In this document: positions 2,571 through 63,742 of the stretch, piece after piece
How the letters are laid out: each line of letters starts with the position of its first letter
How positions within the stretch are numbered: position 1 is the stretch's first letter
From: Thalia democratica
Lineage: Eukaryota
Reading direction: 5' to 3'
DNA length: 64,000 bases
Assembly: GCA_965202585.1 (NCBI GenBank)
Contig: OZ241834.1
Coordinates: forward strand, 30,752,001 to 30,816,000
Notes under the pieces: model-generated
Databases searched by the model: none
What the model was told of the DNA's origin: nothing
The model's input: the letters and a program-made list of their open reading frames with translations, nothing else
Made by a program: the position numbers and the translations under genes

Positions 2571-2690
2571 GTTTATTGAACGACAAAAAAGACGCTCAAA
2601 ATATTTTTGGTCCTAAGACCTGGTGCACGAAAAAACCTTTCGGTTATCGAGTCGCACACCACGGATACCTTTTTACGTCTTGCCCAGAAC
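2571..2690 (-). repeat. Dispersed structured ~120-bp element, copy 1 (SINE-like or SL/snRNA-like)
   Basis: Closely similar to copies at 5944-6062 and 17685-17807; the minus strand folds with G-U pairs and a GAAA tetraloop. Confidence 0.8.
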
Positions 2691-5943: not shown

Positions 5944-6062
5944 GTATATTGAACGAAAAAAAAACGCTCAAAATGTTTGGTCCTAGGACCTGGTACACTA
6001 AAAAACTTTTCGGTTATCGAGTCGCACACCACTTAGATACCTTTTAACATCTTGTCCAGGAT
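5944..6062 (-). repeat. Dispersed structured element, copy 2 (more decayed)
   Basis: Same core TTTCGGTTATCGAGTCGCACACCAC on the + strand; two stem mismatches. Confidence 0.8.
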
Positions 6063-7057: not shown

Positions 7058-10000
7058 ATGGTGAAATACAATTTCAATCTTTTTGTTTTAATAACTTTAG
7101 TTTTGGTTTATATAAGTAAAGCAAGAGTTATTTACGAAGGGTTAGTTACTTAGTTGACAAAACTAAGTTATAACTTAAGGAACCTTTTTTACCTATGAAA
7201 ATGTTGATATTCAACACAATATACTACATTTTTGTACATTTTTAACAAACGTAATTATGTATGAATTTAAAAATTCTTTTGCATAATGAAATAATTTATA
7301 TTAAGCGCATAATATATTAAACTACCATATTTATACAAAATAATATTTTTGAGATTTGGAAGAAAGATTTTATCGATTTAGACATTAAAAGTTATGTAGG
7401 GTTCGTAAAAAAAGTATTTATTTTCAAAATATTAAAATGATTGTTTGTTTTAAGCTTAAAAAAATTATTACTAAAATTTACACCTTTAAATGTTAATTTT
7501 AATGTTGTTTAATAAATTTTAGAAGTCAAGTTTGGAAGTTGACACCAAAAAACGAAGATGAGTTAAATGTACTTAAAGAGTTTGTCAAAATCAATGATCC
7601 ATTTGTAAGTTTTAATTAACTGTGTAGACCTTACTTAAAAAGCGTGAAGTTATAGTTGTTTTTAATGAAGCTTTGTCAAAATAATACAAACTAAAGGCTA
7701 GAAGTTTTGAGTGTATATATCAAAAAAAGTTGCACTTACTATCAATATATACTTTATTTTTTAGAGAAAAAATTAAGTTTTGCTACTTTTAAAAGTCATT
7801 AGTAAATTAACTTTAAAACCTTGTATAATAAAAAACTCAAGCTACAACTAAATGTTTTTTTTCACAACATTTGGTTGTTAGTTTTCATCACAAACAGCTA
7901 ATTCAATCCTTGTTAGATAATTTTTTAAGTGTAAACATGATGTCAGATAAAATTTAAATTGTAGTTTTTTTATTATTATTAATAAACTTCTCAGATAGAT
8001 GTTTGGCAACCTTCGAGCGTCATCGGCCGCTCCTCAGACATCCTGATATCTTCGGACAAGCTATCAACATTCAGGGATGAACTCTCCGGAAAGCTGGAAG
8101 ACTTGAGGGTGATGATCCCCAACGTGCAGGGACTGGTCGAAGATCAGCAGGCAGAGATGAGGAGGCAGGAGAGAGTGGAGCTGAGAGATCTAAACGATTT
8201 CAATTATTCAAGATACCACACTCCTGAAGAGGTATTAGTTGTTTTTCTTGAAACAGAAAATATGTGCATTTGAGTCTAATAACTTTCTGGATTTACAAAA
8301 ACGATGTTGTTATACTTAAAACTTCAAACTTTTATGATTTTACGCAAAGTTTTCTAATCTAGTTTGTTTTGACTGGACATTTAGATAATTCTTTAATTAC
8401 AATGTTACCATGATTCAATATTTTGTCTGAAGTTTTTTTTCTACAAAGTTTTAAGTTGTTTATATTAGTAAAAATTTTCAAATTTATGCTATACTATTTA
8501 AACAAGGTTTTATAAAAAAAATCAAAAGTCGACTCTTACTGACATGAATTTATGGTATTTTTATTTACAATATTTGACTGTCACAATAACTTTGTAAAAT
8601 ATACTGAAGGTTAATGAATTTTTTGACAAATTTGTTTACTTTAGATTTATTTTTATTACCACAACAAAAACTCTGCATTGCTTTTGCTTTGCAAAATACT
8701 GTTTAATGGTGAAAATGTTTAATGTTTTTGACTAACTGAAGTTTTATACAAATATCGTTAATTTTAATTGATTTGTAAGGGTAACTAGTATTGTAGGGTA
8801 GCTATCAAAATTGCACGAGGGTAGAAAATTGCACGAAGATACTTTTGCACAACGACACTTTTGCACGAGGGGATAAAAATGCAAAATTGCGTTTAGTAAC
8901 CTCGTGCAATTTAGAGCCGTTTCCAGTATTGTATTAAAGGGATGAAAGATATTGCATTTTACACAAATTATTGAGCGTAAGAAATAAAGGTTAAAGTTCA
9001 GTTTAAATCAGGGTTTCCAAAAAAGGGCCATATCAGAAATTAATAGGGCCATAAGCTGCTAAGGGGCCATGATGCCATTATTTGAATCTAACACTAGATA
9101 TTTTAGAATTGATGATGAAGAGCAAAAAAAGGTTCTTTAAAAAAAAAGCGTATTTAAGGTTAGTTTTTTGAGAAGTCCTGTCGGAAGGGGCCATAGCTAT
9201 TTTATTTCTTTAAATAAGGCCTTATGAAAAAAAAAGTTTTGAAAACCCTGGTTTAAATAGTGGCTTGATATAACCAAAAATTATAAGTTCATATTGTGAA
9301 AAATATACATACTGAGTATAAACTGTATTGTCCTAGAAAAAATACATTTAAGAGTTTTGCAATTTTACACACTTTTACAGATACAAGAATGGATGGACTT
9401 GGTTACAGAGGCGTTCTCACCGGTGGTCACCCAGTTTCAGGTGGGCACCACTTACGAGGGCAGGAAAATAAACGCGCTGAAGGTGCAGACGGACCCGAGC
9501 GTAAGCAAGAGAGCCATATACGTTGACGGACTCACGCACGCCCGAGAGTGGATCACCGCTGCATCTATCTTGTACGCTTTCGCTCAGGTAAACTAAATAA
9601 AGGCTAAACCATAAAATGCATTTTAATGAAATAATTTTTGCTCAGGCAAATCGAAAATTATTATATGACCTTTTAATTGACTAAGTGATACATCACCTTT
9701 TTGTTCATTTTGTTTTTAGTTTATTGTTCTTCAAAACTGATAGTATATTTTTAATAGTCTGATTTGTTATGTTTCAAATAGTTTTCATTTAGTTTGATGT
9801 AGTTCTAAACTTCTATAAAACAAAAATTAATACTTACTAATTTAAAACTGATTTTTTTAATTTTAAAACTTCTTTATTTTTTAAGATACTGACTGACCCG
9901 GACCTAGCGTACATGGCCGATACCGTGGACTGGTACATCGTCCCGATGGTCAACATTGACGGTTACGCGCACACTTTTACCGGAGGAATTGTTAGTTTTT

Positions 10001-11593
10001 CTATTCAAATAAGTATATATGTGTTATTTAACGTAATTGATATATTAGGAGGAACGTTTGTGGAGGAAAACGAGAAGCAAAGGGGTGAACTTGGAGGCAG
10101 GCAGCACTTGTCAGGGAGTTGACCCAAACAGAAACTGGAATTACCACTGGGCAGGTAACAATGTTTGATACTCATACTAGTTAAGTTAAAAAGAATAAAA
10201 TATAAAATAGGAAACGTTTTAGATTTGTGCTTAGTATCTACTCTCCTTAACTAAAGGTCTTAAATATTTCATAAATGTAGTAGAAAAAAGCGAAATTCTA
10301 AGAAGTTACTAAACAGACTAAAGGAGTTATTAGAAAAAAAAAGTTTTGAAAATCAACTGTCGAATATTTTTGTTAAACTTTCAAAATCATACTAAAAACA
10401 AATAGAATCACTGATAAGTTTTTTATTATTTCAAATTGCACAGAAGTTCTACTTAGGATAAACTAGAAACACATCGTTTAATTAAACTTCAATTTTATCT
10501 TCGTTACAACAACTGCAACGTGTGAAAAATAAACGTAACTCAAACTTAAAGTCCCCAATAGTACTAAATATAACCTTTTAAATAATTATTCAGAGGTCGG
10601 AGCGTCTCCCTTCCCGTGCGACCTGACGTACCACGGACCAGTGGCCTTTTCCGAGTCCTGCACCCGCCACCTGTCCTACTTCATAGAAGCCAACAGTGAC
10701 GTCATAGACACGGTCATCACCGTCCACTCGTACGGCCAGTACCTCCTCTACCCGTACAACTTCGACCTGGTGACCGTGCCGGCGAACCAGGCCCTGCACG
10801 TGAGTTGAAGCAACTATCGTAAAAGGCAGAAAGTTTGCTTTTTGAACGTTTTTATGGGCTGTTTTTGTTATTGTAAAGGCTAAATATGCCTTTTAGAGTT
10901 GAAACTGTTGTAATGTGTTTTAGTAAAATACCAAACTTTCGTAAAATTTTTTTTTTCTAGACTGCTTTCATTTAAATTAAGGCTAAACACATCTCGTTTA
11001 TGTATACTAAAATGTATAAGTTTAGTTGTTAAATGTTTTTTTAAAGGACCAACTCGGACAAGACATGTATGACGCAATAAAGGCTTTGTACGGAACCGAG
11101 TTCACTTTTGGTCAAGGCGGTCAAACTATATGTAAGTTTTAATTGACCAGTAGACTACAAAAAATATTTGCTTGTCTTTGAAGTGTTCTAATTAGCTTAT
11201 AAATATATTTTTTTATACCACATCTATGAACTATTGTTTTAAAACAGTTGAAATTTACGAGTTTTCAAAGCAGCATAAAACTGTGAACTAAAACTTCTTT
11301 TAATTTTTAAAACCAAAAAAAGTAGTTCAAAATCAACTTTTTTAAATTACAAAAATTTTTGTGTCGTTAATAATTTTCGGTTTTATTATTAATCAACAGA
11401 CGAGTGCAGCGGAGTGACCGCGGACTGGACGGCCGGGGTGGCAGGAATTCCAATCAACTGGACCATCGAGCTCAGAGATCTGGGCCAGTACGGTTTTCTC
11501 CTCCCAGAAGACCAAATAGTGCCCTCTGGCGATGAGTTTTTGGCCGCTCTAAAAGTTTCCGTCGCTCACTACCAAACTTCTGTGAATAAATAA
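7058..11593 (+). CDS. M14A zinc metallocarboxypeptidase (procarboxypeptidase A/B-like), 9 exons, 434 aa, signal peptide + activation peptide + catalytic domain
   Basis: Manually joined GT-AG exons 7058-7140, 7523-7604, 7995-8231, 9381-9587, 9886-9990, 10049-10154, 10594-10799, 11047-11131, 11400-11593 (1305 nt, phases consistent, ends TAA). Hydrophobic N-terminus MVKYNFNLFVLITLVLVYISKA; pro-region RVIYEGSQVWKLTPKN; zinc ligands HARE (H69/E72) and HSY (H196); WRKTR (R127), PNRN (N144/R145), Y248, TIELRD (E270), GFLLP. Confidence 0.95.
8808..8912. repeat. Short inverted-repeat element with internal TTGCAC(G)A repeats (MITE remnant)
   Basis: 13-bp IR AAATTGCACGAGG / CCTCGTGCAATTT enclosing three further TTGCAC copies; no TSD verified. 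Confidence 0.5.
9009..9250. mobile_element. hAT-family MITE (Buster/Charlie-like) in carboxypeptidase intron 3
   Basis: TIRs CAGGGTTTCCA / TGAAAACCCTG; perfect 8-bp TSD GTTTAAAT on both sides (NNNTANNN pattern); internal GGGCCAT subterminal repeats; 242 bp, non-coding. Confidence 0.9.
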
Positions 11594-15400: not shown

Positions 15401-18400
15401 GCAACGTGAGGAGGACCCCGTCGAACAGCTCGTGGGTTTCCTTGTTGTCCTTGGTGATGTCCGCGTTCTCATGCAGACCGAAAACCTGCATAAATTTTTT
15501 ATTAAAAATGCTTTATTAATTATTAAATGATAATTAAAAAAAAATTCTGCTTATGTTTCATATAAAACATGGGTTTTAAAATTTATTCATTTTAACAAGC
15601 GTTTAAAATTATCTAAAACCAAATAATCCTTAAGCTATTTTTAATTTTTTTTCCCAACACAAAAAACTTCAGATACTGTACTTTAAATTTTATAAAGTTA
15701 TTAGTTGCATGTACCCAAAGTTACAAAATCATTCTTTCATATAGTATTACATTTAAGACTGATTTTTAAATAGCTTTTACATTAAAAGTGTTTAGTTTTT
15801 TTTTAACCTCTGGATGAGGTATGAGAGGAAGGTCTTTGATGTAATCAACAAAATTTTGCCATTCTCCCCACTCCGGAACAAAATAGTTACCACTAGGTGA
15901 CAGCAAATACGTTTCTTCATCTACCAGCTGGTGCTTGTAAAACTGAAAAATAGTTAGGTTCAATACAATATAGTTTTACTAAATACTATACTTAAAACTG
16001 AAAAATACTAAACATAGTAAAAATTTATTTGAATTTTTTTAACAACTCCTGTTAATAAACTAATAAGAAAATTTAAACGAATAATATTTTAAATAGACAT
16101 AAACAAAGTTTTGAAGTTGATTTAAACTTGTTGTCGCATTTCGACTTTTATTTGTAAATTTCAAAATTAACAAATCAAAACTGTAATAAGCAAAAAAAAA
16201 CAGTTCCGTGAACAGAAATTTATTTATTTAAGAAACAAAACTTAAACTTTATAAAAATCATACACAATTCATAACACTTATATACATATATATAGATAAA
16301 CAAAAGAAACTTGATTTAGTAGTGAATTGAGGAGCCTTCTGTCCTTATCATCGGTGACTCTTCCTCCGTAATTGCACTCTCCCGTCAGATACGTCAGCGC
16401 TTCGTACGGTACCTCGTCGTACTCATTCAAAAACATCTGTTTTTTGTGTGTTAGCTTGTAAATAACTCGAAAAAAATTAAAAAATAAAGCTAAAATTTGG
16501 TATATTACAGACGTTTTTGGTAATTTTAATACTTTGCTTAAGTTTCTACTGGACCAACACATCTTTGATTATTGGAAATTTAAAAACTAATTCCAACTTG
16601 CAAGTGTATAGTAAACTTTTACAAAAGTCATAATTTTACCGTAAATGAAAACATACTTGCAACTGCCGCATGCTGATGCGAAGATCTGATTCGTTGAACT
16701 CGTAGGCGATGTTCCATCCGAGCGCGCCAAATTTCCTTCTCTCTTGCACCATCGCGTGGAAGAAACACAAACCGAACAACATTTTCTGCCAAGCCTGTCA
16801 AGTTGATGGAAAGATATTAAAAGCTTATACGCGGTTGTTCGTTTATGGGAAAAGTTGTTGCACTTGCTTAAAAACATTATTACATTTAATTCTTTACTCT
16901 TGCATCAAAATTTTAATTTTAGAAAACACAATTGTTTATTAAAAACCCTAATCTCGCTTTAATCTCGATAAATAAAATTATCTTCTTAGAATAAAAAGTT
17001 TCACAAATACTTTTGGTTTATTGCAGTCGTTAAAAAATTCAGGGTTGGATATCGGATCACTGACGTAAGATCTCAATAAATTTGCTCGCAGACCTTTCGG
17101 TGGTTCATTGGTCATTTTCACTCCGTTCTATATTACGTTAAAAATAAAATAATATTGTTTATAATTATCAAAATGAAAGAGTCCTTTTTTTCAAATCAAT
17201 ATATTGAACACAAATTAAAACACTTTTTTTTTTAATAGTTGTAACCTAAAAACTGCTTTAAATAATTAAAATTTGCAATCGTTTAAATGAAGGCTATATT
17301 GGTTTAAAATTGTCCTTATTAATAAAAAGTTTATTAAATTAAAATAAAACTAGTATTTGAAAAATATGCAGCTTAAAATCCATCATTCCTAATCAAAACC
17401 ATCATACCTGCAAAATAGAGACAGGGAACTTGTCAGAGGGGTAACTGGTCAACCACAATCTGAAATCATCGTGAACCTTACCTGCAACAATTGTCTCCTC
17501 ACAAATCTTCGAAAGGGTCGGCATCCAACTCGTTGCTAAGTGACAATTTTGAAGCACCACCCAACTACCCTGTTTGATTGTTTAACGAAATTAAAGCTGA
17601 TTAGTTTTTAGCAGGATAAAAATTTTTTTAGGTTAAAATGAGTAAACATTATGTTTATCATTCTACATCTTGAACATAGTAATAGTTTATTGAACAGCAT
17701 AAAAAAAGACGCTCAAAAATATTTAGTCTAAGGACCTGGTGCACGAAGAACCTTTCGGTTATCGAGTCGCACACCACTTGGATACCTTTTAATGTATTGT
17801 CCAAGACAGTAAAAGCAGTTGCAATTTATTTCAAAGTAATAATAAACAAACTGACGTTTACAAGTTGCTTACATTTAATTTTAAATACCAATAACAAAGA
17901 AACTGACATTAACAACGGCGTCATCGATCATCTTACACGCGATTGGACCCTGACCCTGACCGAGTGAAATCGTTCCTATTTTGTTTCCACCGAATCCCTT
18001 GTCTTCCGCGAACTTCAACAGGCCTGAACGTATTTTTTTTGTAAAAAATCTAATAATGTATTTAAAAAATATTGTTGTACAAATCTCAAACTTAAATTAC
18101 TAAATACTTTTTTTTTTACAGCGTAACAATTTATGCAATTATAAACGAAACAACTTAAAAAACGTAAAAGACCAAAAAAAAATTCAGTTAGTTTTCAAAA
18201 AAGTACTAGAGTTACAAAAAAATACAACTCTTACATCTGCTAATAAAAATCCTATAAACGCAGATCTAAAAAAAACGAGAAATTTACAGAACAATCAAAT
18301 GAAAAGTACCGGCGGTGGGATCGGCTCCGGGAGAGAGGATGAATATCAGGGGAACGATCGAAGTTGAGTCGTCGTAAGACCCCTGAAGGTCGAAGGTGGG

Positions 18401-24400: not shown

Positions 24401-27400
24401 TTAGTTTGAAAATATTTACTTTTATATCATTATTATACTTATTTATATTACTTATTTATATTACTAGTTCACCTGCTGGCTAGCAAACTGCAGTTTTTCC
24501 AGCCCGTTCAAGTATCGGTTTTGCAGCCCCTTCACCTCATTACGCTTCTCTTCCAGCAAGTTTTTAAACGTCAGTATGAGTTCCAAGTACGAAGTGGGGG
24601 TTACGTACGTCTTCCGCCTCAGCGAGTTCCAAAATTTGTCCGACAGGTGGCGCACGCTGCACGTAAATTTAAAGTGCAATGTCTTTTTAGTATAACATGC
24701 ATTTAGTTTCAACTAGCTTTTTGAGGATTGATTGTAATGGATTTGGAGTTTTAAAAGTAATGGGGCATAGGAAGGGATATATAACTTTTTTCACAATTTG
24801 ATCTTATTTTATAGAGTTTTAACTAAGCTACGAGATGTTATTTACAAATTTAAAAAATTCAATACATTTTTTTGAGATATAAAAGATCAAAGTTGGAGGT
24901 TTCTTTTGAGAAGCGCGAATTAAAACCGCGAAAAAAGACTACTTCACTAAAAATCTACCTTCTCCTACGTTTTTTGAGATAAATACCTCAACAAACGTAG
25001 GAGAAGGTAGATTTTTAGTGATTTCTATCTATATGCCGTTTTAGTTTACGCTTCCCATAAGGAACCTATTGTAGCCTCCGACTTAGACCGGCTATATCTC
25101 AAAATTATTTGAGTTTAAAAAATCTGTAAAAAGTAGTGATGTACCGGACTCACTATCCGGGTCCGGCCGGATATTGCCATTTTTGTCTGATATCCGGATC
25201 CGGCCGGATTCTAATTTGAAAAAAAAGTCCGGATCCGGTTCCGGCCGGATTCTAATTTGAAAAAAAAGTCCGGGTCCGGTTCCGGCCGGATTCTAATTAA
25301 AAAAAAAAGTCCGGATCCGGATCTAGTTAGTAAAAAAGAGCATACTGAAAAGTATTTTTTAAAAAACAAACCCTGAGTAAATTAATAAGAGTCATTTTCG
25401 TCAGTTAAAATTAAACACCTACCGTGATTGGCTCATTTTGTACACGTGACTAATTTACATTTGTTTACATTTAAACTATGAAATAAACATTTCATGAAAT
25501 AAAACTCTTTACATATGTTGTAAAATTGAAAACTTTGAAATGAACACTTGCATTTTTTATTGTTTAAAGTTGAGCTCAGAGAATATTTAGAGTTAAAACG
25601 GTTAAATGTACGAGCAAATGAGAATCATATGACGAAATATTTGAAACTAAATACTGATGCAACAAAACATCAGAACATGACAGGCAGTTTATATGTAAGC
25701 AGTTAGTTAGTTTGGTGTGTAGCTTGAAGCAACAAAATATCTTGAACGTTTTTGTGAATGCTTATTGTAAGTAGTGTTTTGTTTTAAAAGTGAATATTTC
25801 AACAGGTGTTTAATTGTTTAAATATTTAAGCCAGGTTTATAGTTTAATAGTTTATTAAAAGTTTTACAGTTTCATGTCTACTAAAAGTTTTATTTAATTT
25901 TTAGTTTTTTGTTTTAAGTCATTTGATATAGATTTAAATAGCTTCCAGTTTTTAAAGTGTTACCAAAGTAATTAATAATTTTGTATATGCTAGTATTTCT
26001 TGTTGTGTTTTATATAAAAGATTCATCACTCAAAACTGTCGTGTCTGATTATAGAAAGTAGTCTCAGTTAGAATTTAGTATTTGTTAGATATTTATTAAA
26101 TAAGGTAGGATTTAATTATGATGGGTAGTACTGATAAGTTAAGTGTACCACAATCAGTCCACAACTTTACTACCAAATTGTCAACCTTTGCTAGCTGTTC
26201 TACTGATTATTAGATTATAGTATTTTTTTCAGTTTTTAAAAACCTCATTCTGACTCAGGCTTGTTTATACTCACTCTAGCTAGTTTTATTGACTTAAACA
26301 GTAGAAACCCTGCTAGTTTGAAAATTTTTGGGAATTTTAGAAAATCTTGGACTGCCTCAGGCTAGTTTAGTTTTATATAAAAACTCAGGCTAGTTTTCTT
26401 TTAGATTTTGAATAAGTTTGAGCTGATCCAGTTTTCAATATTTTGTAACTTTCTAGTGTATTTTGTTCAAGAACTTGATTTCAGATTTTTAATTGTAAAT
26501 AACACCTAAATTTGTAAACCTTGTGGCTAGCTGTTCTACTTATTATTAGATTAAAGTTCTTTTTTTTTCAGTTTTTAAAAACCTCATTCTGACTCAGGCT
26601 AGTTTATTCTAGTGATGTACCGGATTCACTATCCGGGTCCGGCCGGATATTGCCATTTTTGTCTGATATCCGGATCCGGCCGGATTATAATTTGAAAAAT
26701 AAGTCCGGATCCGGTTCCGGCCGGACTCTAGTTTGAAAAAAAAGTCCGGGTCCGGTTCCGGCCGGATTTTAATTTAAAAAAAAAGTCCGGATCCGGTTCC
26801 GGCCGGATTCTAATTTGAAAAAAAAGTCCGGATCCGGATCCGGCCGGACCCGAAATTGTGGGTCCGGTACATCACTAGTAAAAAGCAACTTGTAGCTTAG
26901 TTAGAACTAAATAAAATAAGACTAAATTATGAAAAAGGCGATTTCTCCCCCTATGCTTTTTGTTAAAAATATAAAATAAAATCAATCTCATCTTAAAAGT
27001 TTTTAATTGTACTACAAAACATAATATTTTTTACACCTCTCATGGAAGTTCTTGCACATTTGCACGCATTTCTGCCTGATATCGTCTTCGAGGTCAACAT
27101 CAGCGAGAAATCTGTGAGCCACAATCTCCAACGCGTCCTCTGGCCACGCCTGTTGTGTGATTTTTTTTAAATAAAAATAAAAGTGTTTCCAAGTTCTGTC
27201 TGGCCACGCCTGTAACGTGTACATACTAACATAAAATAGTAAGAGTATTAAAATACTTTCTTTTCGTCATTCTTGTCAGAAAAATGTCATGAGATGTTTT
27301 AAACCAGTCTATATAAATAAAAAGATTAAAACTAAAGTATGAAAGTCTTCCAATTGATTTCGCTTGAGAAATAAATAAAAATTTATTTTAAATTGTTTTT

Positions 27401-39400: not shown

Positions 39401-42400
39401 TAGTAAGGATTTAAAAAAATACCCATTTTAGGTTAGAATGTTTTTCCTGAGCTTGAGTCTGGTTTTGATTTTTGATTAACAACCCTTTTTGCTTTAAATT
39501 TATAGTTTAGAATTGTATATTTGTTATAAATTTGATATTTCAGGTAATCAACAAGTTTGCCACTTAATCAGAATAATCCTGGATACTTTAAAATTTTGAA
39601 AATCTCAGTATGACATAATATAACTTGGAACATTTTAAATTTCTTTTTTAAACCCAGGCTGACTCAAGGTAGTTATTTTTATCTCAGTATAGTTTTAAGA
39701 TTTCAGGCATTTTTTTTCTACATTTTGAATGAGACACAGTTAATTTAGTCCCAATAATTAATTTTGTAATTTTAGTATTTTTTGCTGAAGATATTTGTTT
39801 TTCTTGCCTTTGAAAATAAAATAAAAAAAATGAAAAAAACCTAGATGACTACAGTTCAGTTTAAAAGTCATTCAGGACAGTCTTGATCTGTCAAATCAGT
39901 TTTAACCAAAAGGATTATAATCCTGTAAAACTAATTTAACAGTATGTACATTAAATGTTTGACATAATAAAAAATGTTTTTTGTTTCAAAGATAAGCAAC
40001 CCTGGTCTTAAAATATTTAAATTCTTATTTTTTTGCAAATTATTGATTGTCCTTTTAACTTTTTTTTTGCATATTACATCTTTTACTTACTAAAAATCTG
40101 ATTTTAAATATAACTTCTTTTATTAAACTAAGCTAAAATAAAAATTAACACAATAATAATTTTAAATATTTACAGTAAGATATCAAATTTACTGTATATT
40201 ACTTATTTTAAACCAAATATTTTACTTATGGTGGTTTTTTATATTTTTTATAGAAATAAAATGTTTTATAAGTTTAATCAGGACAATTTTTTTAAAGCTA
40301 TAAAGTATTTTTTTAATATTGATTAAACTAGATTAGAAATCAGTAATGACATTAGTTTTTTGATAAACTTTTTACACACTCAAACTTCTTTGGATAACTA
40401 TTATGTTATTTTAAAGGTCGGAAAACTTTGGCAAAGTAACTTTTAAAAAGATACTTATGCTGAGACATTATACCTCAATTGAAGAACTTACTTGACAAAA
40501 GGAACCACAACCCAGTAGCAGTTCTAATAAACAGCTCATTATGGTTAGATAGTTTAAGAATAATAGGTCTCTCGGTATTTTAGTCTCTTAATTACACTAA
40601 AAAAAATAAAAGTCAATGTCTCTTCTACTAATGTTGTTACATTTTTAAATTTTACAAAAATGATTTATTCATTTTTATAAGTGCTTAATAACTTTTGAGA
40701 AAAATCTAATTATTGTTATGTTAACTTTTATTAATTTTCATTAATTTAATTGTTTTTTTTAAATCATTATCATTTTAATTAGTTTAAAAAATTACTTGTT
40801 TTTATTAGTAACAGCTTTTTTTTGCTTTTTTTTTTTTTTTGAACGTTGTAGTTTTATTTTCTTTATGTTATAGCTCATTTTTATTCTTACTTATTTTAGT
40901 AAGTTAAATAGTAGAATCCAAATTCTTAAACATACTTTTCAAAACTTAAATATATATAAGTCTTGTTTTTTTAAGACATGTAAAAGATTAAATTATTGAT
41001 AAGTTTTAAATTTAAAAACCTTTCAGGTTAAAACTTTACCTTTTAACGTAAAGTTCAATATAGATTTTATGTGTGTATGATGTTAGATACTGTTATATAA
41101 TTTTTTGTTTGTTGATATTTTAGTTTATAAAAAATAGTTAATGTATTAAATTTTAATAGTCTCATTTTAAAAAGTTTTTTGTTTTAGAGTTTGAATTTTA
41201 ACTGTTAAGTTTTTTTAAATAATTTTTAGCTCATTATAAATTTGATTAAAGTTGGGTATGCAACTCGATGACCGAGAGGTCTTTTTGTGTATCCAAGTCC
41301 TTCAACCAAAAATAACTTTTGGGCATATAAACCTCATTAAGACCTGAATTATTACTAGGCATTAACTTTAAAACCTAAATTTTAGGTTTATTCAGACTCG
41401 TGCTAGCAACAAGACCAACAAAGACAGTTCCAGGTCAACAAAACGGATTTAGCTGTGATATGATTTTTTATGTTTTTTTTCGTTACTTTTTCGTTACTTT
41501 TTGGTGTAATTTTTGTTTTCGCTATTTTTTCGTGGCAATGCATTTGTTAAACACATATAGTAATCGCTTAATAAAAAATCATTAAGTAAAGTTAACTAAA
41601 TAATTAAAATTACCATGCAATAAAAAGTACCAAGACTGCTGATTGTTAATTTGGATTGTGGTAATCTAGTTAGTATTTTAGACTTGGGGGATACAAGTAA
41701 AATATTGTTGTAAAAATTAGATCATTGATATAAGTTTATTAAAATGGATAGGGTAAAGTGGTCAATTTTAAGTTAGCGTGTAAAATTAACTGGGTGTTCT
41801 CGAATTATTAGTAAATAAATCGATTGAAAGTATTTACATATTCTTCAACACTAGCGGCGCTAAAGAGTGAAAATTGGGGTGCACCGAATTTTAATTTTGT
41901 GATTAAGGGTTCACGAATTCAAATTAGCGTGCCGACCACTGAACTAAACTACAGTTAAGATGTTTCTAAGAATACAACTATTGATTCAAAAGCCCATCAT
42001 TAACGCTTGGTTGTTCGAAACATTCAAGCATGATGGTTCATAACTTCAGCTGCAACTGAACAAAAGTCGTAACCTCTATTCTGTTGAACTCGTCGAAGCA
42101 GGCCCACGCGCCGCACGAAGCCAGTCCCTTGAAGAACTTTCCCATGGCCTTGTAGTCGAGGCCGTCGGAGCAGTTGAAGACGACGCACTGCTTCGCCAGC
42201 GCCTTCGCCAGATCCTTGGTCGTCTCGGTTTTTCCGGTACCCGCGGGTCCTTCGGGCGCTCCGCCCAGGTTCAACTTCAACGCTCCCATCAACGTTCTGA
42301 GGTTTTAATGTAAAATGATGTTTAAAAGTTTAACTGGTAGAGTAAAATAAGTTAAGACTAAAATTCACAATTACATTACCTGAAACTTTAGTGTGATATA

Positions 42401-54400: not shown

Positions 54401-57400
54401 AATCAAAAAAATACAAAAACAGTTATTTGTAATAATTTAAATATATAACAAAAAAAAAAAAGATTTTTTATAGTAACTTGCTGGTTTTAACTTACAAACC
54501 TACAACAGAAGTTATTTGTCACTTTCGTTTAAATTTCTTTTTTGCTTGTTAATATATATACACTATTATTGTGGGTAAATTTGCTAAAAACCTCCCATAA
54601 AAGAGTAAAATGTGAAAAAAAAAGTTACTTTATAAATTAAATAAAAAACTGAAGGGTTTATACTTTTACTTTTTCGACTTTAATATAAGGTAGCCCATGA
54701 TGCTGTTGCTTTTATAAAATTGAAACTCAATCGTTTGAAACAGCAGTTTTTAAGTTTAAAAGCTTAAGTTTTTTATATAATTTATAAAATTAAAATTCAA
54801 CAGTTTCAAACAGCAGTTTTTAAGTTTAAAAGCTTAAGTTTTTTATATAATTTATAAAAGTCAAACAACTTACTGCTGCGGCCCGTTGGAATTTTGGCTG
54901 ATGATGTTGAGCGTCCACCCGATGGCGTTAGAGATCAAGTGTTCGTTCGACTGCACGCTTTTTAAGTACAGCTGGGAATTTTTCATTTCCCGGAAAATTT
55001 CGCACTCAACCTGTTTTGTGATAATGATGGTATAAGTTATATTTTCATTCAGTTACAGCACGTTTCATTTTTATTTATAAGTCATAAGTTTTTAACTAGC
55101 GTGCACTTTTTTGAACAAACAAGCTATCAATAGAGGTGTGTTTATACTTAATATGCCAACAAGTTTAAAACTTCCAAAAACAACAAAACAATAACAAACA
55201 ACCCTGGGATTGTTAACTAGCGTGCGCTCTTGTAATTAAACTAGCCACCTAAAGGGACTATGAAAACTGAACTGATAAATTTGAAACTTTCAAAATCAAA
55301 CAAAAAGTAACCCTGGGAATGTTGCGGCCGACGGATATGATGTGCTCGAAGCAGCTGAGCATGATCTGCTGGCAGTCGTGGAAGGTGGGAGAGAAGCAGG
55401 GCTGGTCGTCGTGAGTGAGCAGTTTTATGAGGAAGACGGAGGGCATGCACCAGTTCAAGCAATCGTAACTGCCTTTCAAGTCGTTACCGCGCTAAAATGA
55501 AAGCTATAGCATTTTAAAACTGTTAGTGTTACTTTTGTGAATCTATGAGTTTAGTTAAGACTTGTAAAAATAATTCAATTCGAAAAAATACACAGTACAT
55601 CAAAAATATTATATAAACTAACTAATACTAAGGTAAATAGTATTTTTTAAAATATATATTAAGATTTTTGCCAAAAGTGTTTTAGATAACTTTTTATTTA
55701 GAGTAATTATGTTTTTTGCTTGAACCAAATGAGTTGTTGAGAATTAAACCGTTAGTTGCAAACATAACTACTTCCTTCTGAAAGTATTTTCTACATTTAT
55801 GTTGGTTTAAAAGTAACAAATCGTAAAAGTAACTATTATATTTTAACTTTTTATGAAGCTAACTAACTGTACAATTTTCATAAATAAATAATTAATATTT
55901 GTGACTATGAATTTTTGTAAAGTACTTATTTGAATAATAGAACTAAGTTTTGTAACTTTAGTAACTAATTTTAACAGTACAAGTATAAAGTTAGAAATAT
56001 AATACAATCTTGATAACTTTCACAACTAAATAATATTCAATTAAGAATTAGTGTTGATGCTAGAAAATAAAAAATAACATGATAACAACCTCATGGATTT
56101 CTAGGAACTGAATGAAATCTTTTATTGTGTTTGTGATCAACGTGCGCAGTTGGTTGGACATCAAAGTCGCCGCACAAGAAAAAAACGCCTCAATCTGTAG
56201 GATTAGAAATTTTTAATTTTACACATTAACTTATTTACATCAATTTAAATTTTAACATATATCAACAAAATAATATTAAATTGACCAAAAAAATATTTTC
56301 TTAATATATGTAGATGGAGAAATAACAGTAAATGTTACAGCATTTATTTTGACACTTACGAGCATCAACGTGTCGTTCGGCGATTTCGGCACAAAATCTT
56401 TCCACTCGGCAGAATTCTGCTTGAATATTTCTGAAGCTGCCGGGATCCATTCGTCTATGAGGACGCTCTTCATGTTCAGACACGACTTCTCTATCTTTAT
56501 TTTTTAATCAACTTTTTAGTAACCGCATAAATATTTTTATTGAAATCAAAGTATTATCTATTTTTATAACTTGGTCACTAAGCTAATTTGATAAGGATAA
56601 TATAATTGACGGCTTAAAATGTTCTACGTAACACACACAAGCAAGACCACAAAAATATATTAGAGCTCTAAAAAAGCAATGACATATAGAAAAGTTTTTG
56701 TTATTTTTTTAAACAACCAGGCATATTTTTTCAAAACCATGTTATTACAGTTAAAAATCAATTTAAAAATTCAAAATTCAGTTATTGTACTTTTTATTAA
56801 TCAGCTGTAATAATTAAAACTCATAACAACTATAAAGCAAAAAACTTTACATAAACAAACTGTACTCTTAATATGAAAAAACAATTAACTAATAAAAAAG
56901 TTTTTTTTGTAGTTTACTTGTTTTTATTTTTATCAATTCTAAGTATTCAAAAGAAATAAGGTTAAAAAATCTGAATAATTGCTTATTTGTTTCCTCTTTT
57001 AAAATGTTGAAAAAAATCGGAAAGTATTGAAAAGTAAAACTTATCTAACTTGAACTTCAAACTTCTTGGGATGAACAGGAAGGTTTCCTGAGTGGCTCAG
57101 ATGATCAAAATCAACACATCTGAGTGAAGCGAACCTGAATAGTTGACAATCATGTTTATAGCTGTAATTTTTAATAGCAAGTCTTTTGTAAATTTTACAG
57201 AGTCTTTACGAAAGGTTACTTTGCATTGTTGTTAATTTATTAAAACAATACTTTTTATCAAGCCGTTTTGTTATAGTTGGTACACCAAGTATAGTATACA
57301 AAAGTACTTATAAGTGTTATTTTATTTCAATAAAATTTAAAATAAAATGACTACATCTGAAAACTTCAAACAATTCAAACAAATAACTACAAAAATTACT

Positions 57401-60400
57401 TTATTTAGAATATGTTGATAAGTTATTAAATTATACTTTTAATTTATAGTCCTTACAAACAAAACAAATTTTCCTTTAACTAGCTAAAAAACAGATGACT
57501 ACAAAACTAAACCATAAAAATAAAAAATCAAAAACGACAAAATTTAAATAAAAGTATTTTTACAAGTTGCAAGTTAATACTTTATAAAACATTTTGTTCA
57601 CTTAACTAAGCATAAATTTATACAACACTTTTCTAAATAGTACGAATCTGTTTCATGCCACAAACTAATCAATTATTTGTTTATGCGTGTTTTACACTCA
57701 ACACACTTTTCGTGCCACAGGTTCTGCAGTTGGTGCAGCACGTTGTTGGTTGTGAACAGGAACTGCTTGCAGCTCAGTCTGGCGTCTGCGAAATCGTGTT
57801 TCCATGGCACCGGCGCCCGGATGACGCGGTGGGGATGTTTTTGGGGCACGGATTCGATGTTCAACCTCGTTCGCTCCCCCTCATCCTGAAGGATGTAGTC
57901 AACTGAAAAAATAAATTAATAACTATAAAAAAACCTGGTTAACTTCAACCATACTACGTAAGGTTGTTATTATTTAACATAAGCTAAACTGTAAGCTTAT
58001 TTTCAAAAAAATAAAGTTGTTTTTTTCGGTGTTTTTTTTTAGTTTCTATTTAGTTAAAACAATAAATTTATTTTATTTTAATTACATTCAGTTGCTGATC
58101 GTGTTTGTTCACATGTTCAGCAAAAACAACTAGTTATAACTCTATTGTCTAAAATAAGTTAAAAGCTAAGTCATTTTTGTAGGTATAGCTAATATAAATT
58201 ACTAGTACTTAAATTATAATACTAATTGATAAGAAGTAAAACTATGTGCACAGTTGTTATCAGTTTAGTCTAATTTTATTTTATATATAGGTTTTATTTT
58301 GAAATTTAAAATAGAAGAAAATTAAAAAATATTATAAATAGTCAAAAGTTTTACAAAAGATAAAAGCTAATAAATAACTGTTCAACAAAAAGCAAACTAG
58401 TAAAATATAAAGAAATCATGAATCATTAAATAACTAGACTATTAAGTGCATATTAAAAATTACAAGGTCAAAACTCAAAGTAAGCAAAGTTCATTTAAAA
58501 CGGCTTAAAATTGTTTTCAAATACATAACATCAAGTTTTTAACTGTGATTTTTATTTCGTTAACACAATAAACACAAATATTTCGAGCAACTATTCACCC
58601 ACCCACACCCTGCCTGTAGCTGTAAGTGTAGTTTTCAAAGAACTCGTCGTGAAGCCTCTTAATGGAACTTTTCAGTTTCGGATCTTGCAGCAGGGAAGCG
58701 CTCAGGTGGCTCTCAATTCGCTCTTTTTCGCCCTCTGGCGGAGGAGCAATTTCCCCTAAATCAAAACCCTTCTCAACGTAGTAGTTGTATCTCTATATAA
58801 AAGATTACTTTTAATTGTTTTATTTCTAATTATAACCTAAAGTTTTTAAGTTTTATAATTATAAAAATTTATTTATTATATGACTTGTATAAAAACGAAA
58901 TTGTGCGAACTTTTTTTTGAAAATGATCATTGTACTATTGATCATCATAAGTAAAGAGTATTATAAATCGTAGACAAATACGATTTCAAAATAAAATACT
59001 TTAGATAGATGGAAAATAAATTTTTGAAAGAATAAATATAAAATACTTTAGATGATTTACCTCTATATTAATCTTATTTTGTATATTTATTTATTATTTT
59101 TTACTGTACATATATTTCGCCTTGAAACTGCTTAATTCTTATATTTTAGCTTTAAACAAAAATAATAAATAATTTGTTATTTGACTTATAAAATAAAATA
59201 ATATTTTTGAAACCATTTAAATGTTAAGGGCATAGGGGAAGTCCAGCACTTTTTTAAAAAAATTAACAATGGCTTTTATTTCAAAGCTTTTATTTCAAAG
59301 CTTTGACTTTGAAAACTATAAGATACTATTTATAGAACAAAAAAATCAATTAACTTTTGAAATATAACAAGTTTGTAAAATATTTGTGATACAACCATAT
59401 AGAATCAAAAGTTTTTAAGGCGGATTTTCTAGGAATTTCAAAAATTTACTAAAAATATATCTCTTCCTTCATTTTTGAGCAATTTAATTCAAACTTTCAG
59501 AAAATGTACTTTTTAGTATTACAAACAACTTGTAAGAAGCAAATTTTTGAAAAAAGCCTTAAAAATAATTATGATCAAAATTTGTTTTTTCTTATTTTTT
59601 GTTTTTTTTTTTGTAAATTATTTTTAGAAAAATTAAAATAATTGTATCTGTATCTTGCAAGTTGTATAAAATTTATTAAAAATTACTATCAAGATTTTTT
59701 TAAACAATTGCTCAAAAACTGAAGGAGGAGATAGATTTTTATTAAAATAGTCTATATTCGCCCTTTTACTTTGCACCTACCATAAAGAACTTTTAGAATC
59801 TTCTAACTTTGATTGCTTATATCTCAAAAGTAACTTTGAGTTTTAACAAACGGTAGAAAGTAAGAAGTAGCTTATCTAACTGAGTAAAAAAATAAGACTA
59901 AACTTGAAAAAAAAACTGTGTACTCCCCTATGACCTTAAACTATTGCTTAAGTATTTATTTAAACAAACTACTGTACTTTTATAAACCTACTTTTAATTT
60001 TGAACAGGAAACAAGTTTTATTCTCAAAGACACACTTCAACATTTATTTAATATTTTTTATTAGATAATGTGTATAAATCCATACCTCAGTGTCTCTTTT
60101 AGTAGGTTCTTGCTGCTGTGAAGCCTTTTCAATTTCCAGCATGATGCTTATTTGTTCAGACGGTGAGAGAGGAGGTTCCTCGTCAACAACTAGCTTCTTC
60201 ATTATCGAAGTGGTGGATCTTTTGCTTCTGGACGAACCTAACGTTGACAGCTTGCCACTGAATCTGAAAAAAAAATCATGCTAATTGGTTTAGAAAAAAA
60301 TGTTATAACAAAAAAGAACTTGGTGTGCTGTGTCACTTCTTTATAAAAAGTCATAACTTTAGCTTTAGATCTTTTAAAAAAAAATTGCAAATAAAATATT

Positions 60401-62068: not shown

Positions 62069-63426
62069 CTGTGAACAAAATATTTTTTTTTGTACAAACC
62101 AATAACAAAATTAAGTAAAAAATATATAACTGTTCAAAATATAGTTTTAATTGTTTGCTAATAAAAGATCCTAGTAAAGTAACTTCACTGGAATATAAAT
62201 AAAAACAAATTATAATAACATTCAATATATAATATACATGTTACACCGAGTTTCTGTTACTTTTATTGCCTTCAGCGCCGTTAAGTTTTATTGAATTTTA
62301 TTGATTTACTAACTGATGGTTAATGTTTTATTTTTGTTCAGAATGGATTACATAAAAACAAAATTAATGTTCTTGCAGTACAAATTGAATAGTTTAGGTG
62401 GCCTCATTTACATTGTGACGTAATTATTAGTTGTAAAAATGTATTTTTTTCGTTAGTTAACAACCGTAAATTTTGATTTAGTTATCTTTCCTATTAACTT
62501 AAGTTGTTTGTTTATATTATATTTTGTTGTGTAATTTAGCTTACTTATTTATTTTAGACTTAATAATTACAAATATCATATAATTTTATAACAGTCGGAT
62601 TTAATGTTAAGTATTTCACCTATTAATAACTATTATCTGTAGAATATATCTTATTTTAATGAAAACATATATACACCTAATTTATTCTATGCTTCTATTC
62701 TCTCATTACAGTAATTATTTTTTTATTTTTTTACAGAACCCAGTTGAAGTGTGTTGATTCGTTGACACACAGAAACATATGTTGGTAGAATAAAGGAAGA
62801 TTACTGTATAATTTGTAAAAAATATATATATTTATTTATATAAAATTTAAATAAGTCCTTAAATACTCTGGTACAATGCTAAGCATTTTAAATTTTAAGT
62901 TTTTTTAATAACAATTTAAGTGACTGTTGTGTAGGCATTTGAAACTAATAAATAAACTATTGAAAACTTTATTCTTTAAGTATGAAAAACAAAAAATTAG
63001 ATTAGCTTAAAGTTTCAAATTGTTTTCTAATTTGCAAATAAATTAAAAACTACCTTTATGTTTTCCATTTTTGTATATTATAACCAAGAAAAATTTAATT
63101 CATTATATCTTTTAAAGCTGAAAAAATTTAAAAAATGTAAGTTATCAAACAAATTTAGTTATCCGATCCAACATTTTTCTACCATTTTAAAAGCTTTGCA
63201 CACCAAATTACTAGAAAATAACTTGTGTGTACACTGGATTATAAAAGTATAAATTAATTGCAAAAACACAATTTATTCATGTTTTGGGTGTCTATACAAA
63301 TAATGTGTTAAGAATTGCTATTTTATAGAAAAAATTATTATTAAAGAAAAATAAATCAACTAATAAACATTTTTTCAGTCTGAGAGTTGTTTTATGCAAG
63401 GTAAAATATTTTATTTGCACTCAATA

Positions 63427-63742
63427 GAACAATTCCTAAAAAGTTAAAGTTAAATGCTTTAAAAATGAAGGAGGAGATAGACTTTAAATACTTTTTATTT
63501 TTGAGAAAACTGACCTTGAAAAGTTTCTATTCTTATTTCTTATTTATAATATTTTTTATTTGTATTTGTGTTGATCACTGGGTTTAAATCTTATAACATT
63601 CAACTCAGAGAGTATGATTATGTCTCTAAATTTAATTGATTATTTTTTGTTTTTTTTAAGTGCCTTATAGTATCTACTATAAGCTTTCGAATTAGTCTTA
63701 ATATTAACTATTGAAAAAATAAAGTTGGACCCCCTTATGGTC
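63427..63742. mobile_element. Partial (right-half) copy of the same foldback family
   Basis: AAAAATGAAGGAGGAGATAGA near 63461 matches the 59228-59935 interior; ends CCCCCTTATGGTC followed by TTAA. Confidence 0.55.

What the first reader, a model, noticed from the sequence alone, without database searches (positions are those of the whole stretch)
17685..17807. Dispersed ~120-nt element with spliced-leader/snRNA-like architecture
Seen on the minus strand of three copies (2571-2690, 5944-6062, 17685-17807), in order: a ~20-nt segment CYTGGRCAAKAYRTWAAAAG; an invariant AAG|GTATC donor-like junction that pairs back to the 5' end (CTTGGA/TCCAAG in copy 3); a 10-bp stem with tandem G-U pairs capped by AACC-GAAA-GGTT; a small GGTC/GACC hairpin; an Sm-site-like ATTTT(T)GAG; and a final GAGCG/CGTTC hairpin with a U-rich loop. 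Established: SL RNAs are ~100-130 nt with the donor in stem-loop 1 and an Sm site between later stem-loops. Competing reading: four copies in 64 kb suggests a SINE, and the 5' CTTGGGCAAG-like motif and 3' TCAATAAA resemble CORE-type/L2-tailed SINEs. Either an SL/snRNA-derived retroposon or a dispersed SL gene family would be notable.
Basis: partly seen in the sequence, partly recalled or inferred. Interest (0 to 1): 0.7.

Follow-up and report, generated by a model that had tools for sequence, protein, structure and literature searches.

The report
Headless LINE-tail retroposon, not spliced leader
This 120-base repeat is very likely not a spliced-leader RNA but a short jumping element, in likely thousands of copies, whose last 90 bases match the tail of a reverse-transcriptase-coding jumping gene of the same genome that likely copied it; it is odd mainly in lacking the promoter-bearing small-RNA head that such elements normally carry.

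Summary
The three copies are real, but the spliced-leader (SL)/snRNA reading fails. The 3' ~92 nt are the 3' terminus of a decayed CR1-group LINE family of the same genome. The window copy is 82/92 identical to one LINE tail. 26 of 30 LINE 3'UTR hits end in this tail. Both sets are equally diverged (7.6% vs 7.8%). The stem, GAAA hairpin, 'Sm site' and AATAAA are inherited from the LINE. The host's real SL gene, with the exact Ciona 16-nt leader, lies in the rDNA unit. It left 980 fused genomic relicts, whereas the putative leader left 0 of 20. The 28-30-nt head has no tRNA, 5S or Rfam match and no shared upstream flank. An internal T7-9 run argues against Pol III. Verdict: a SINE-like, LINE-tailed retroposon without a small-RNA head. 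How its sharp 5' end is set is unresolved; cDNA fold-back at a 5' palindrome is my best guess. The scan had no earlier look-alike. More surprising, in passing: full-length LINEs here start with the SL, and many SL relicts carry a hammerhead core.

The parts
17685..17807 (-). Full copy 3 of the ~120-nt retroposon, sense orientation in a dynein (DNAH3-like) intron; short AT tail continues to about 17681
   Evidence: 7.6% from the family majority
17778..17807 (-). Head (30 nt here, 28 in the other main subfamily): 9-11-nt palindrome at the 5' end, then a segment that can pair with the tail's TTTTGAGCGTC stretch; holds the donor-like AG|GT (17786/17785); origin unknown
   Evidence: 582 exact 28-nt head matches in the genome; not significantly LINE-like, shuffle p 0.67; weakly complementary to tail positions 85-112, p 0.033
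17685..17777 (-). LINE-derived tail (93 nt), homologous to the 3' terminus of CR1-group LINE family E (also, more distantly, families C and B)
   Evidence: 75-82 identical of 90-93 aligned positions against 6 LINE-E tails
17737..17776 (-). 10-bp stem with tandem G-U pairs and inner GNRA-capped hairpin; likely the reverse-transcriptase recognition structure
   Evidence: the G-U pairs are mostly A-U pairs in the LINE-E tails; A-U/G-C swap at the hairpin base across LINE families
17712..17720 (-). 'Sm-site-like' ATTTTTGAG; inherited LINE-tail sequence, paired with the head in near-consensus copies
2571..2690 (-). Full copy 1 (short-head subfamily), outside the dynein gene
   Evidence: 5.1% from majority
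5944..6062 (-). Full copy 2, more decayed, outside the dynein gene
   Evidence: 9.5% from majority
40846..41331 (+).
   Evidence: 70% identity over 543 nt, E 2e-60
17570..17907 (-). Host intron (338 nt) that contains copy 3; spliced out whole
   Evidence: one contig of run X8 joins across it, ends CT..AC

Best explanation
The element is a dispersed, non-coding repeat made of a 28-30-nt head and the last ~92 nt of a CR1-group LINE of the same genome, and it likely spread by borrowing that LINE's reverse transcriptase. Shown: tail homology, equal divergence, a fixed 5' end, unrelated flanks, a short variable AT tail, no small-RNA head. Inferred from established LINE/SINE biology: the LINE protein binds the tail stem-loop in trans and primes reverse transcription at a nick in AT-rich DNA, leaving short or no target duplications. 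Inferred and weaker (about 0.35-0.4 among the options for this one step): copies are transcribed passively by Pol II inside host introns, UTRs and read-through RNA. On this reading the 5' end is fixed because the cDNA folds back on the 5' palindrome and leaves the template there. The family is probably inactive now.
For: Tail: 26 of 30 hits to a LINE 3'UTR query end in an element-like tail, and 24 of the 30 have ORF2 matches within the locus (in one of them, L270, the match is on the opposite strand). Window copy 3 is 82/92 identical to the L273 tail. ORF2 of related families carries endonuclease and RT domains. Median divergence is 7.6% for 55 element copies and 7.8% for 23 LINE-E tails. Structure is kept between LINE tails and element: 90.9% of cells paired, one A-U/G-C swap in 10 vs 10 rows, 0 of 500 shuffles reach the covariation score (related rows inflate this). 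3' ends run into TATA/(AAT)n. No upstream conservation in 101 independent copies, and loose ends at the 5' junction agree only 0.42-0.44 in 126 and 125 contigs of runs X5 and X7. No tRNA or Rfam hit; no exact A or B box; internal T7-9 run. For fold-back: T at -1 in 65 of 101 copies vs 40% background; perfect palindromic arms of 3 nt or more in 8 of 101 vs 2.6 expected, one of 13 nt; two more of 9 nt with one mismatch. The RNA contigs listed mostly carry the element inside longer records (76% of laid X8 contigs run on unlike).
Against: No intact family-E LINE among 14 loci extended upstream, so mobilisation by it is not shown. No clear target duplication: 5 of 61 copies have a 5-bp repeat at one offset vs 0.6 expected, one of 210 combinations tried. 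RNAalifold on 55 copies gave no consensus structure. LINE-E plus element alone show no two-sided change and do not exceed shuffles. The head's origin is unexplained, and most copies have no fold-back arm. All RNA runs were contigs, which cannot show starts or a discrete RNA. No Dfam/Repbase search was possible.
Confidence: 0.85

Rival explanations
1. Same LINE-tailed retroposon, but its 5' end is a true RNA end: a few master loci are transcribed from a flanking promoter, or the head is a minimal internal promoter or a self-cleaving site. This competes only with the fold-back step.
For: Very sharp 5' end: G1 in 92 and T2 in 98 of 101 headed copies. Only 38 genome-wide matches of the core with a non-standard upstream, most of them still with a head. 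SINEU is a precedent for flank-driven transcription (PMC4494074, passages).
Against: Several subfamilies share the same 5' end with unrelated flanks, which needs several masters. No shared upstream element. No ribozyme hit in Rfam. By inspection, an HDV-like fit fails and the possible 7-bp 5' helix is broken in three subfamilies.
Confidence: 0.4
2. A dispersed SL RNA gene family, or an SL/snRNA-derived retroposon, donating a 22-nt leader.
For: 22 nt ending in AG then GT, a U-rich motif and three hairpins in ~120 nt. The host does appear to have SL trans-splicing.
Against: The real SL gene is different and lies in the rDNA/U2/U5/5S unit. It has 980 non-donor genomic relicts vs 3 in the control, while 20 of 20 'leader + non-GT' hits are mutated element copies. 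A subfamily lacks the donor. The 'Sm site' is LINE tail and is paired in near-consensus copies. No promoter conservation. The intron is spliced out past the donor (one contig).
Confidence: 0.03
3. A 5'-deleted descendant of a tRNA-headed CORE-type SINE with an L2-like tail.
For: The head resembles the reverse complement of a 21-mer reported from Ciona (PMC7986045, passage), and a CORE motif as I recall it (not tested against a CORE consensus).
Against: 0 matches of a CORE-like 19-nt pattern. No copy with a shared upstream extension. G at -2 in only 1 of 101 copies.
Confidence: 0.07
4. A DNA-level element (MITE or non-autonomous Helentron type) that arose from a LINE tail and uses the head/tail inverted match and the terminal palindrome as ends.
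For: Head weakly complementary to tail positions 85-112 (p 0.033); terminal palindrome; few target duplications.
Against: The helices rely on G-U pairs and fold on one strand only. The 3' end coincides with the LINE's own end and has a variable simple-repeat tail. No fixed target duplication and no fixed target dinucleotide.
Confidence: 0.06

Closest known systems
SINE/LINE pairs with a shared, stringently recognised 3' tail (e.g. eel UnaSINE1/UnaL2 as I recall; concept and UnaL2 in PMC3747384, passages)
   Same: Short, non-coding, high-copy; 3' tail with a stem-loop shared with a LINE of the same genome; simple-repeat end.
   Different: No tRNA/5S/7SL head, no exact A/B boxes, an internal T run that would stop Pol III; about 75% of the element is LINE tail.
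Bipartite non-autonomous LINEs (RIME, NARTc, Bov-A, RTESINE, R2-derived; PMC5786205, passages and section 23)
   Same: LINE-derived, no small-RNA head, probably Pol II RNA.
   Different: The head is not the LINE 5' end: the one full-length family-E-like copy, and copies of four other families, start with the host SL. The paper lists ORF-less bipartite forms only for RTE, Ingi, Vingi and R2, not the CR1 group.
SINEU and Sadhu, retroposons without a recognisable internal promoter (PMC4494074, passages)
   Same: Open question of transcription; internal oligo-T argues against Pol III; flank-driven transcription proposed.
   Different: No snRNA-derived head, no target preference seen, no 5' extensions shared among copies.
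SL RNAs (Ciona 16-nt leader, 46-nt RNA; Hydra; nematode; PMC7986045, passages)
   Same: Superficial layout only: AG|GT near the 5' end, U-rich motif, hairpins.
   Different: The host's own SL gene is elsewhere and unrelated; features are not conserved as in a functional gene family.

Membership tests
SL RNA | Leader present on 5' ends of unrelated mRNAs | not testable with these tools
   Only contigs were available; a 22-nt match is probably too short to be laid.
SL RNA | Proxy: leader found in the genome fused to non-self sequence (retrocopies) | tested here: not met
   0 of 20; positive control with the real SL: 980 matches, and none of the 30 read continues as the SL gene.
SL RNA | Conserved GT donor after the leader | tested here: not met
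   53 of 100 intact in a biased set; AAACTGT subfamily 11 of 100.
SL RNA / Sm snRNA | Single-stranded Sm site | tested here: inconclusive
   Paired in predicted folds of L012, L016 and copy 1, partly free in copy 3; motif also ends the LINEs; Sm binding not testable.
SL RNA / Sm snRNA | Conserved upstream promoter, gene-like conservation | tested here: not met
   No upstream conservation; median 7.6% divergence, CpG sites twice as variable.
Classical SINE | 3' tail shared with a partner LINE | tested here: met
Classical SINE | Short, non-coding, dispersed, high copy, fixed structure | tested here: met
   582 exact head matches; 4903 first-look candidates; 13 headed copies in at most 1.04 Mb fetched for other reasons.
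Classical SINE | tRNA, 5S or 7SL head with internal Pol III promoter | tested here: not met
   internal T7-9 run.
Classical SINE | Target-site duplication or simple-repeat tail from target-primed reverse transcription | tested here: inconclusive
   Short AT tail present; 5-bp duplication in only 5 of 61.
Bipartite non-autonomous LINE | 5' part equals the LINE's 5' end | tested here: not met
   One full-length E-like copy of 14 extended starts with the SL (15 of 16), not the head; one copy only.
CORE-SINE | CORE domain behind a tRNA head | tested here: inconclusive
   Pattern search 0 hits; no CORE consensus was available for alignment.
MITE / Helentron-associated element | Strand-symmetric terminal or subterminal inverted repeats and a fixed target | tested here: not met
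   Strand-asymmetric fold; no fixed target.
Self-cleaving ribozyme (HDV-like, hammerhead, twister, pistol, hatchet) | Match to the family's core | tested here: not met
   No Rfam hit at gathering score or at E up to 10; cleavage itself not testable.

The most novel reading that the evidence does not exclude
A promoterless, headless retroposon strategy. In a genome whose LINEs have shed their promoters and get their 5' ends by SL trans-splicing of read-through RNA, a bare LINE tail became a ~10,000-copy family by gaining an 11-nt palindrome (or an unknown self-processing fold) that fixes its 5' end without a promoter, a small-RNA head or a leader.
Probability: 0.3. Interest if true: 0.7.

Novelty: new variant of a known kind. 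Interest (0 to 1): 0.42.

Why it matters
As an SL candidate it is a false lead, and a warning: CR1-group LINE tails can mimic SL/snRNA layout. As a retroposon it bears on an open question stated in the SINE literature, how elements without an internal Pol III promoter are transcribed and bounded. At 120 nt it is a minimal test substrate. The work also exposed a larger pattern in this genome: LINEs of five families and many hammerhead-bearing mini-elements begin with the host's spliced leader. If this holds in RNA, trans-splicing would be doing for these elements what 5' ribozymes or internal promoters do elsewhere.

Tried and rejected
Rfam at gathering score and at E up to 10, and ARAGORN: nothing relevant. 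Chaetognath SL pattern: 0 hits. Host placement by protein: dynein, EF1a with a tree, and HSD17B12 gave no named close relative and no tunicate among the best named hits. The tunicate assignment therefore rests on the Ciona-identical SL alone. First read-laying on the EF1a/HSD17B12 locus confirmed spliced contigs but showed no 5' leader of any kind; repeats filled the loose-end table. Second laying showed no empty allele: both listed haplotype contigs of X5 and of X7 carry the 5' junction. Summed contig depth over the element (about 10,000-20,000 times the flank) is not used as a copy number. Solo-LTR/TRIM rejected for lack of a fixed 4-6-bp duplication. A 'young subfamily' pattern gave only the 3 copies already held. 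Families A and D LINE tails do not match the element model; A shares only the last word CAATAAACT. HDV, twister, pistol, hatchet and hammerhead resemblances were considered by eye from recalled consensus motifs and rejected. SL spliced onto the element rejected: AG at -2/-1 in 3 of 101, TAA at -3..-1 in 4 of 101. Near-duplicate flanks were dropped before counts: 9 loci plus 4 of 65 rows, and the same rule. Earlier scan notes did not bear on the finding. No supplements were read; repeat libraries in the supplements of the salp genome papers might already hold this family.

Full report
Observation. The three minus-strand copies are at the stated places. Rfam and ARAGORN find nothing relevant. 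Most of the window is an axonemal dynein heavy-chain gene on the minus strand. Copy 3 lies in its intron 17570-17907, which one contig of run X8 splices out whole. Copies 1 and 2 lie beyond the dynein 3' end, upstream of a plus-strand carboxypeptidase. The partial 'fourth copy' is the end of a truncated LINE 3'UTR.

It is a genome-wide repeat. A DNA search gave 4903 first-look candidates in 802 Mb, and the exact 28-nt head matches 582 times. Thirteen headed copies turned up in at most 1.04 Mb of loci fetched for other reasons, so about 10,000 copies is my rough inference. Copies start sharply (G1 92, T2 98 of 101) and have unrelated AT-rich flanks. They end in CAATAAAC plus a short TATA/(AAT)n run. 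Median divergence from the majority is 7.6% in 55 aligned copies, with CpG sites twice as variable. Several subfamilies exist. Target duplications are mostly absent: 5 of 61 at one offset vs 0.6 expected, one of 210 combinations.

It is not the spliced leader. The host's 15.5-kb rDNA repeat holds 18S, 5.8S, 28S, U2, U5 and two 5S genes. Between U5 and 5S it has a gene with the exact 16-nt Ciona leader, as printed in PMC7986045 (passage), followed by GTAAGT. This suggests a tunicate host. Protein searches neither confirmed nor excluded that. The 16-nt leader occurs 980 times without its own donor continuation, against 3 in the control, and none of the 30 loci read continues as the SL gene. The same test on the element's putative 22-nt leader gave 20 hits, all mutated element copies. 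The donor is absent from a whole subfamily (11 of 100 copies). The donor's pairing to the 5' end depends on a change present in a minority of copies. In near-consensus copies both donor and 'Sm site' are predicted to lie in one long helix. A direct test on mRNA 5' ends was not possible, because all runs were contigs.

It is a LINE tail. I surveyed reverse-transcriptase hits (30 loci plus 40 stretches, of 150 listed). The element model matched the 3' termini of two LINE families, B and C. ORF2 of both has endonuclease and RT domains, and the family C ORF1 has an FP-type domain. Placing them in the CR1 group (L2/Crack-like) is my reading from recalled features, not a tree. Copies with a non-standard head led to a closer family E. 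Of 30 best hits to its 3'UTR, 26 end in the element's tail (one of the 26, L278, is an element copy inside the UTR). Window copy 3 is 75-82 identical of 90-93 positions to six such tails. E tails are as diverged as the element, 7.8% in 23 tails. The stem's tandem G-U pairs are mostly A-U pairs in family E. Across families the hairpin base swaps A-U for G-C in 10 vs 10 rows. Against over-reading: RNAalifold found no consensus on 55 decayed copies, and E plus element alone show no two-sided change. No intact E copy was found among 14 extended loci. One chimera joins the head to a family-B tail (L157).

The head. Its 28-30 nt are not significantly like the LINE sequence upstream of the tail (p 0.67) and are weakly complementary to tail positions 85-112 (p 0.033). 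It has no exact A or B box, and an internal T7-9 run argues against Pol III, the same argument as made for SINEU (PMC4494074, passages). A CORE-like pattern has no match. It is not the LINE's 5' end (one copy). It begins with a palindrome. T at -1 is enriched (65 of 101 vs 40%), and fold-back arms of 3 nt or more occur in 8 of 101 copies vs 2.6 expected, one 13 nt long.

Mechanism. Shown: composition, homology, equal age, boundaries. Established by analogy (PMC3747384, passages): LINEs of the stringent type recognise a 3' stem-loop, and SINEs borrow it. Inferred: family E, or a close relative, mobilised the element in trans. Least sure: passive Pol II transcription with the 5' end set by cDNA fold-back. 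A promoter-defined or cleaved RNA end is about equally open.

Comparison and novelty. It works like a SINE with a partner LINE but fails the small-RNA-head test. It is not a bipartite LINE either; PMC5786205 (section 23) lists ORF-less ones only for RTE, Ingi, Vingi and R2. I found no description of this family, of SL-headed tunicate LINEs, or of SL-hammerhead elements in ten full-text searches, read as listings. Dfam, Repbase and most subscription journals were not searchable. SL on about 30% of Hydra transposon transcripts is published (PMC12220107, passage). Salp genomes are reported as LINE-rich with few annotated SINEs (PMC10686999, passages). Other papers seen as passages only: PMC11067881, PMC12460157, PMC2566580, PMC5240408, and PMC2481426 (also its section 12). 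No supplements were read.

Verdict. Real feature; SL/snRNA reading not supported; a headless, LINE-tailed retroposon, a new variant of a known kind. Interest 0.42. The SL-headed LINEs and SL-hammerhead minis deserve their own follow-up.

Noticed in passing
L152, L154, L155, L165 (family A); L161, L162, L209, L216 (B2); L160 (C); L220 (D); L301 (E-like); also L234, L242: Full-length LINE copies begin with 11-16 nt of the host's Ciona-type spliced leader, mostly followed by G, and reach the ORF1 ATG within about 10-45 nt; upstream flanks are unrelated. Ten of 11 copies that reach the ORF1 start show it (L202 does not; two further rows were not 5' ends). This suggests promoterless LINEs whose read-through RNA is trans-spliced, with the relict leader's AG reused as acceptor. 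Not shown in RNA.
   Followed up: partly
L227, L228, L233, L235, L238, L240, L241, L243-L245, L247, L250, L251, L254: 14 of the first 30 SL relicts on C1 are followed within 10-16 nt by a minimal hammerhead core (CUGANGA-stem-GAAA), in ~95-nt elements of at least three families, often with an inverted copy upstream; Penelope pseudo-LTR or retrozyme-like by recall. Rfam gave Hammerhead_HH9 below its cut-off for 1 of 8 loci scanned. Some loci are local duplicates.
   Followed up: partly
L085-L086 (G000:C258), SL gene at L086:2557-2580: One 15.5-kb tandem unit holds 18S-5.8S-28S, U2, U5, the SL gene and two 5S genes. The SL gene has the exact Ciona leader but not the Ciona Sm motif AGCTTTGG behind it.
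   Followed up: partly
L157, minus strand, about position 2380: Chimera of the element's head with a family-B LINE tail: tail exchange.
   Followed up: no
L057-L059 (G000:C9:24.2-24.4 Mb): Three clustered EF1-alpha paralogues, two of them divergent; HSD17B12-like gene divergently placed next to the conserved one.
   Followed up: no
window 7986-11590 (+) and 12427 onward (-): A zinc carboxypeptidase gene lies tail to tail with the DNAH3-like dynein gene.
   Followed up: no
window 24765-26956, 54711-54865, 59401-63533, 1011-1335/3095-3417: Other local direct and inverted repeats and small tandem units, not examined.
   Followed up: no
L163, L164, L217-L219 (family D) and L150: A poly(A)-tailed LINE family with open ORFs and a different structured tail; one RT hit of a different, probably restriction-endonuclease type.
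   Followed up: no
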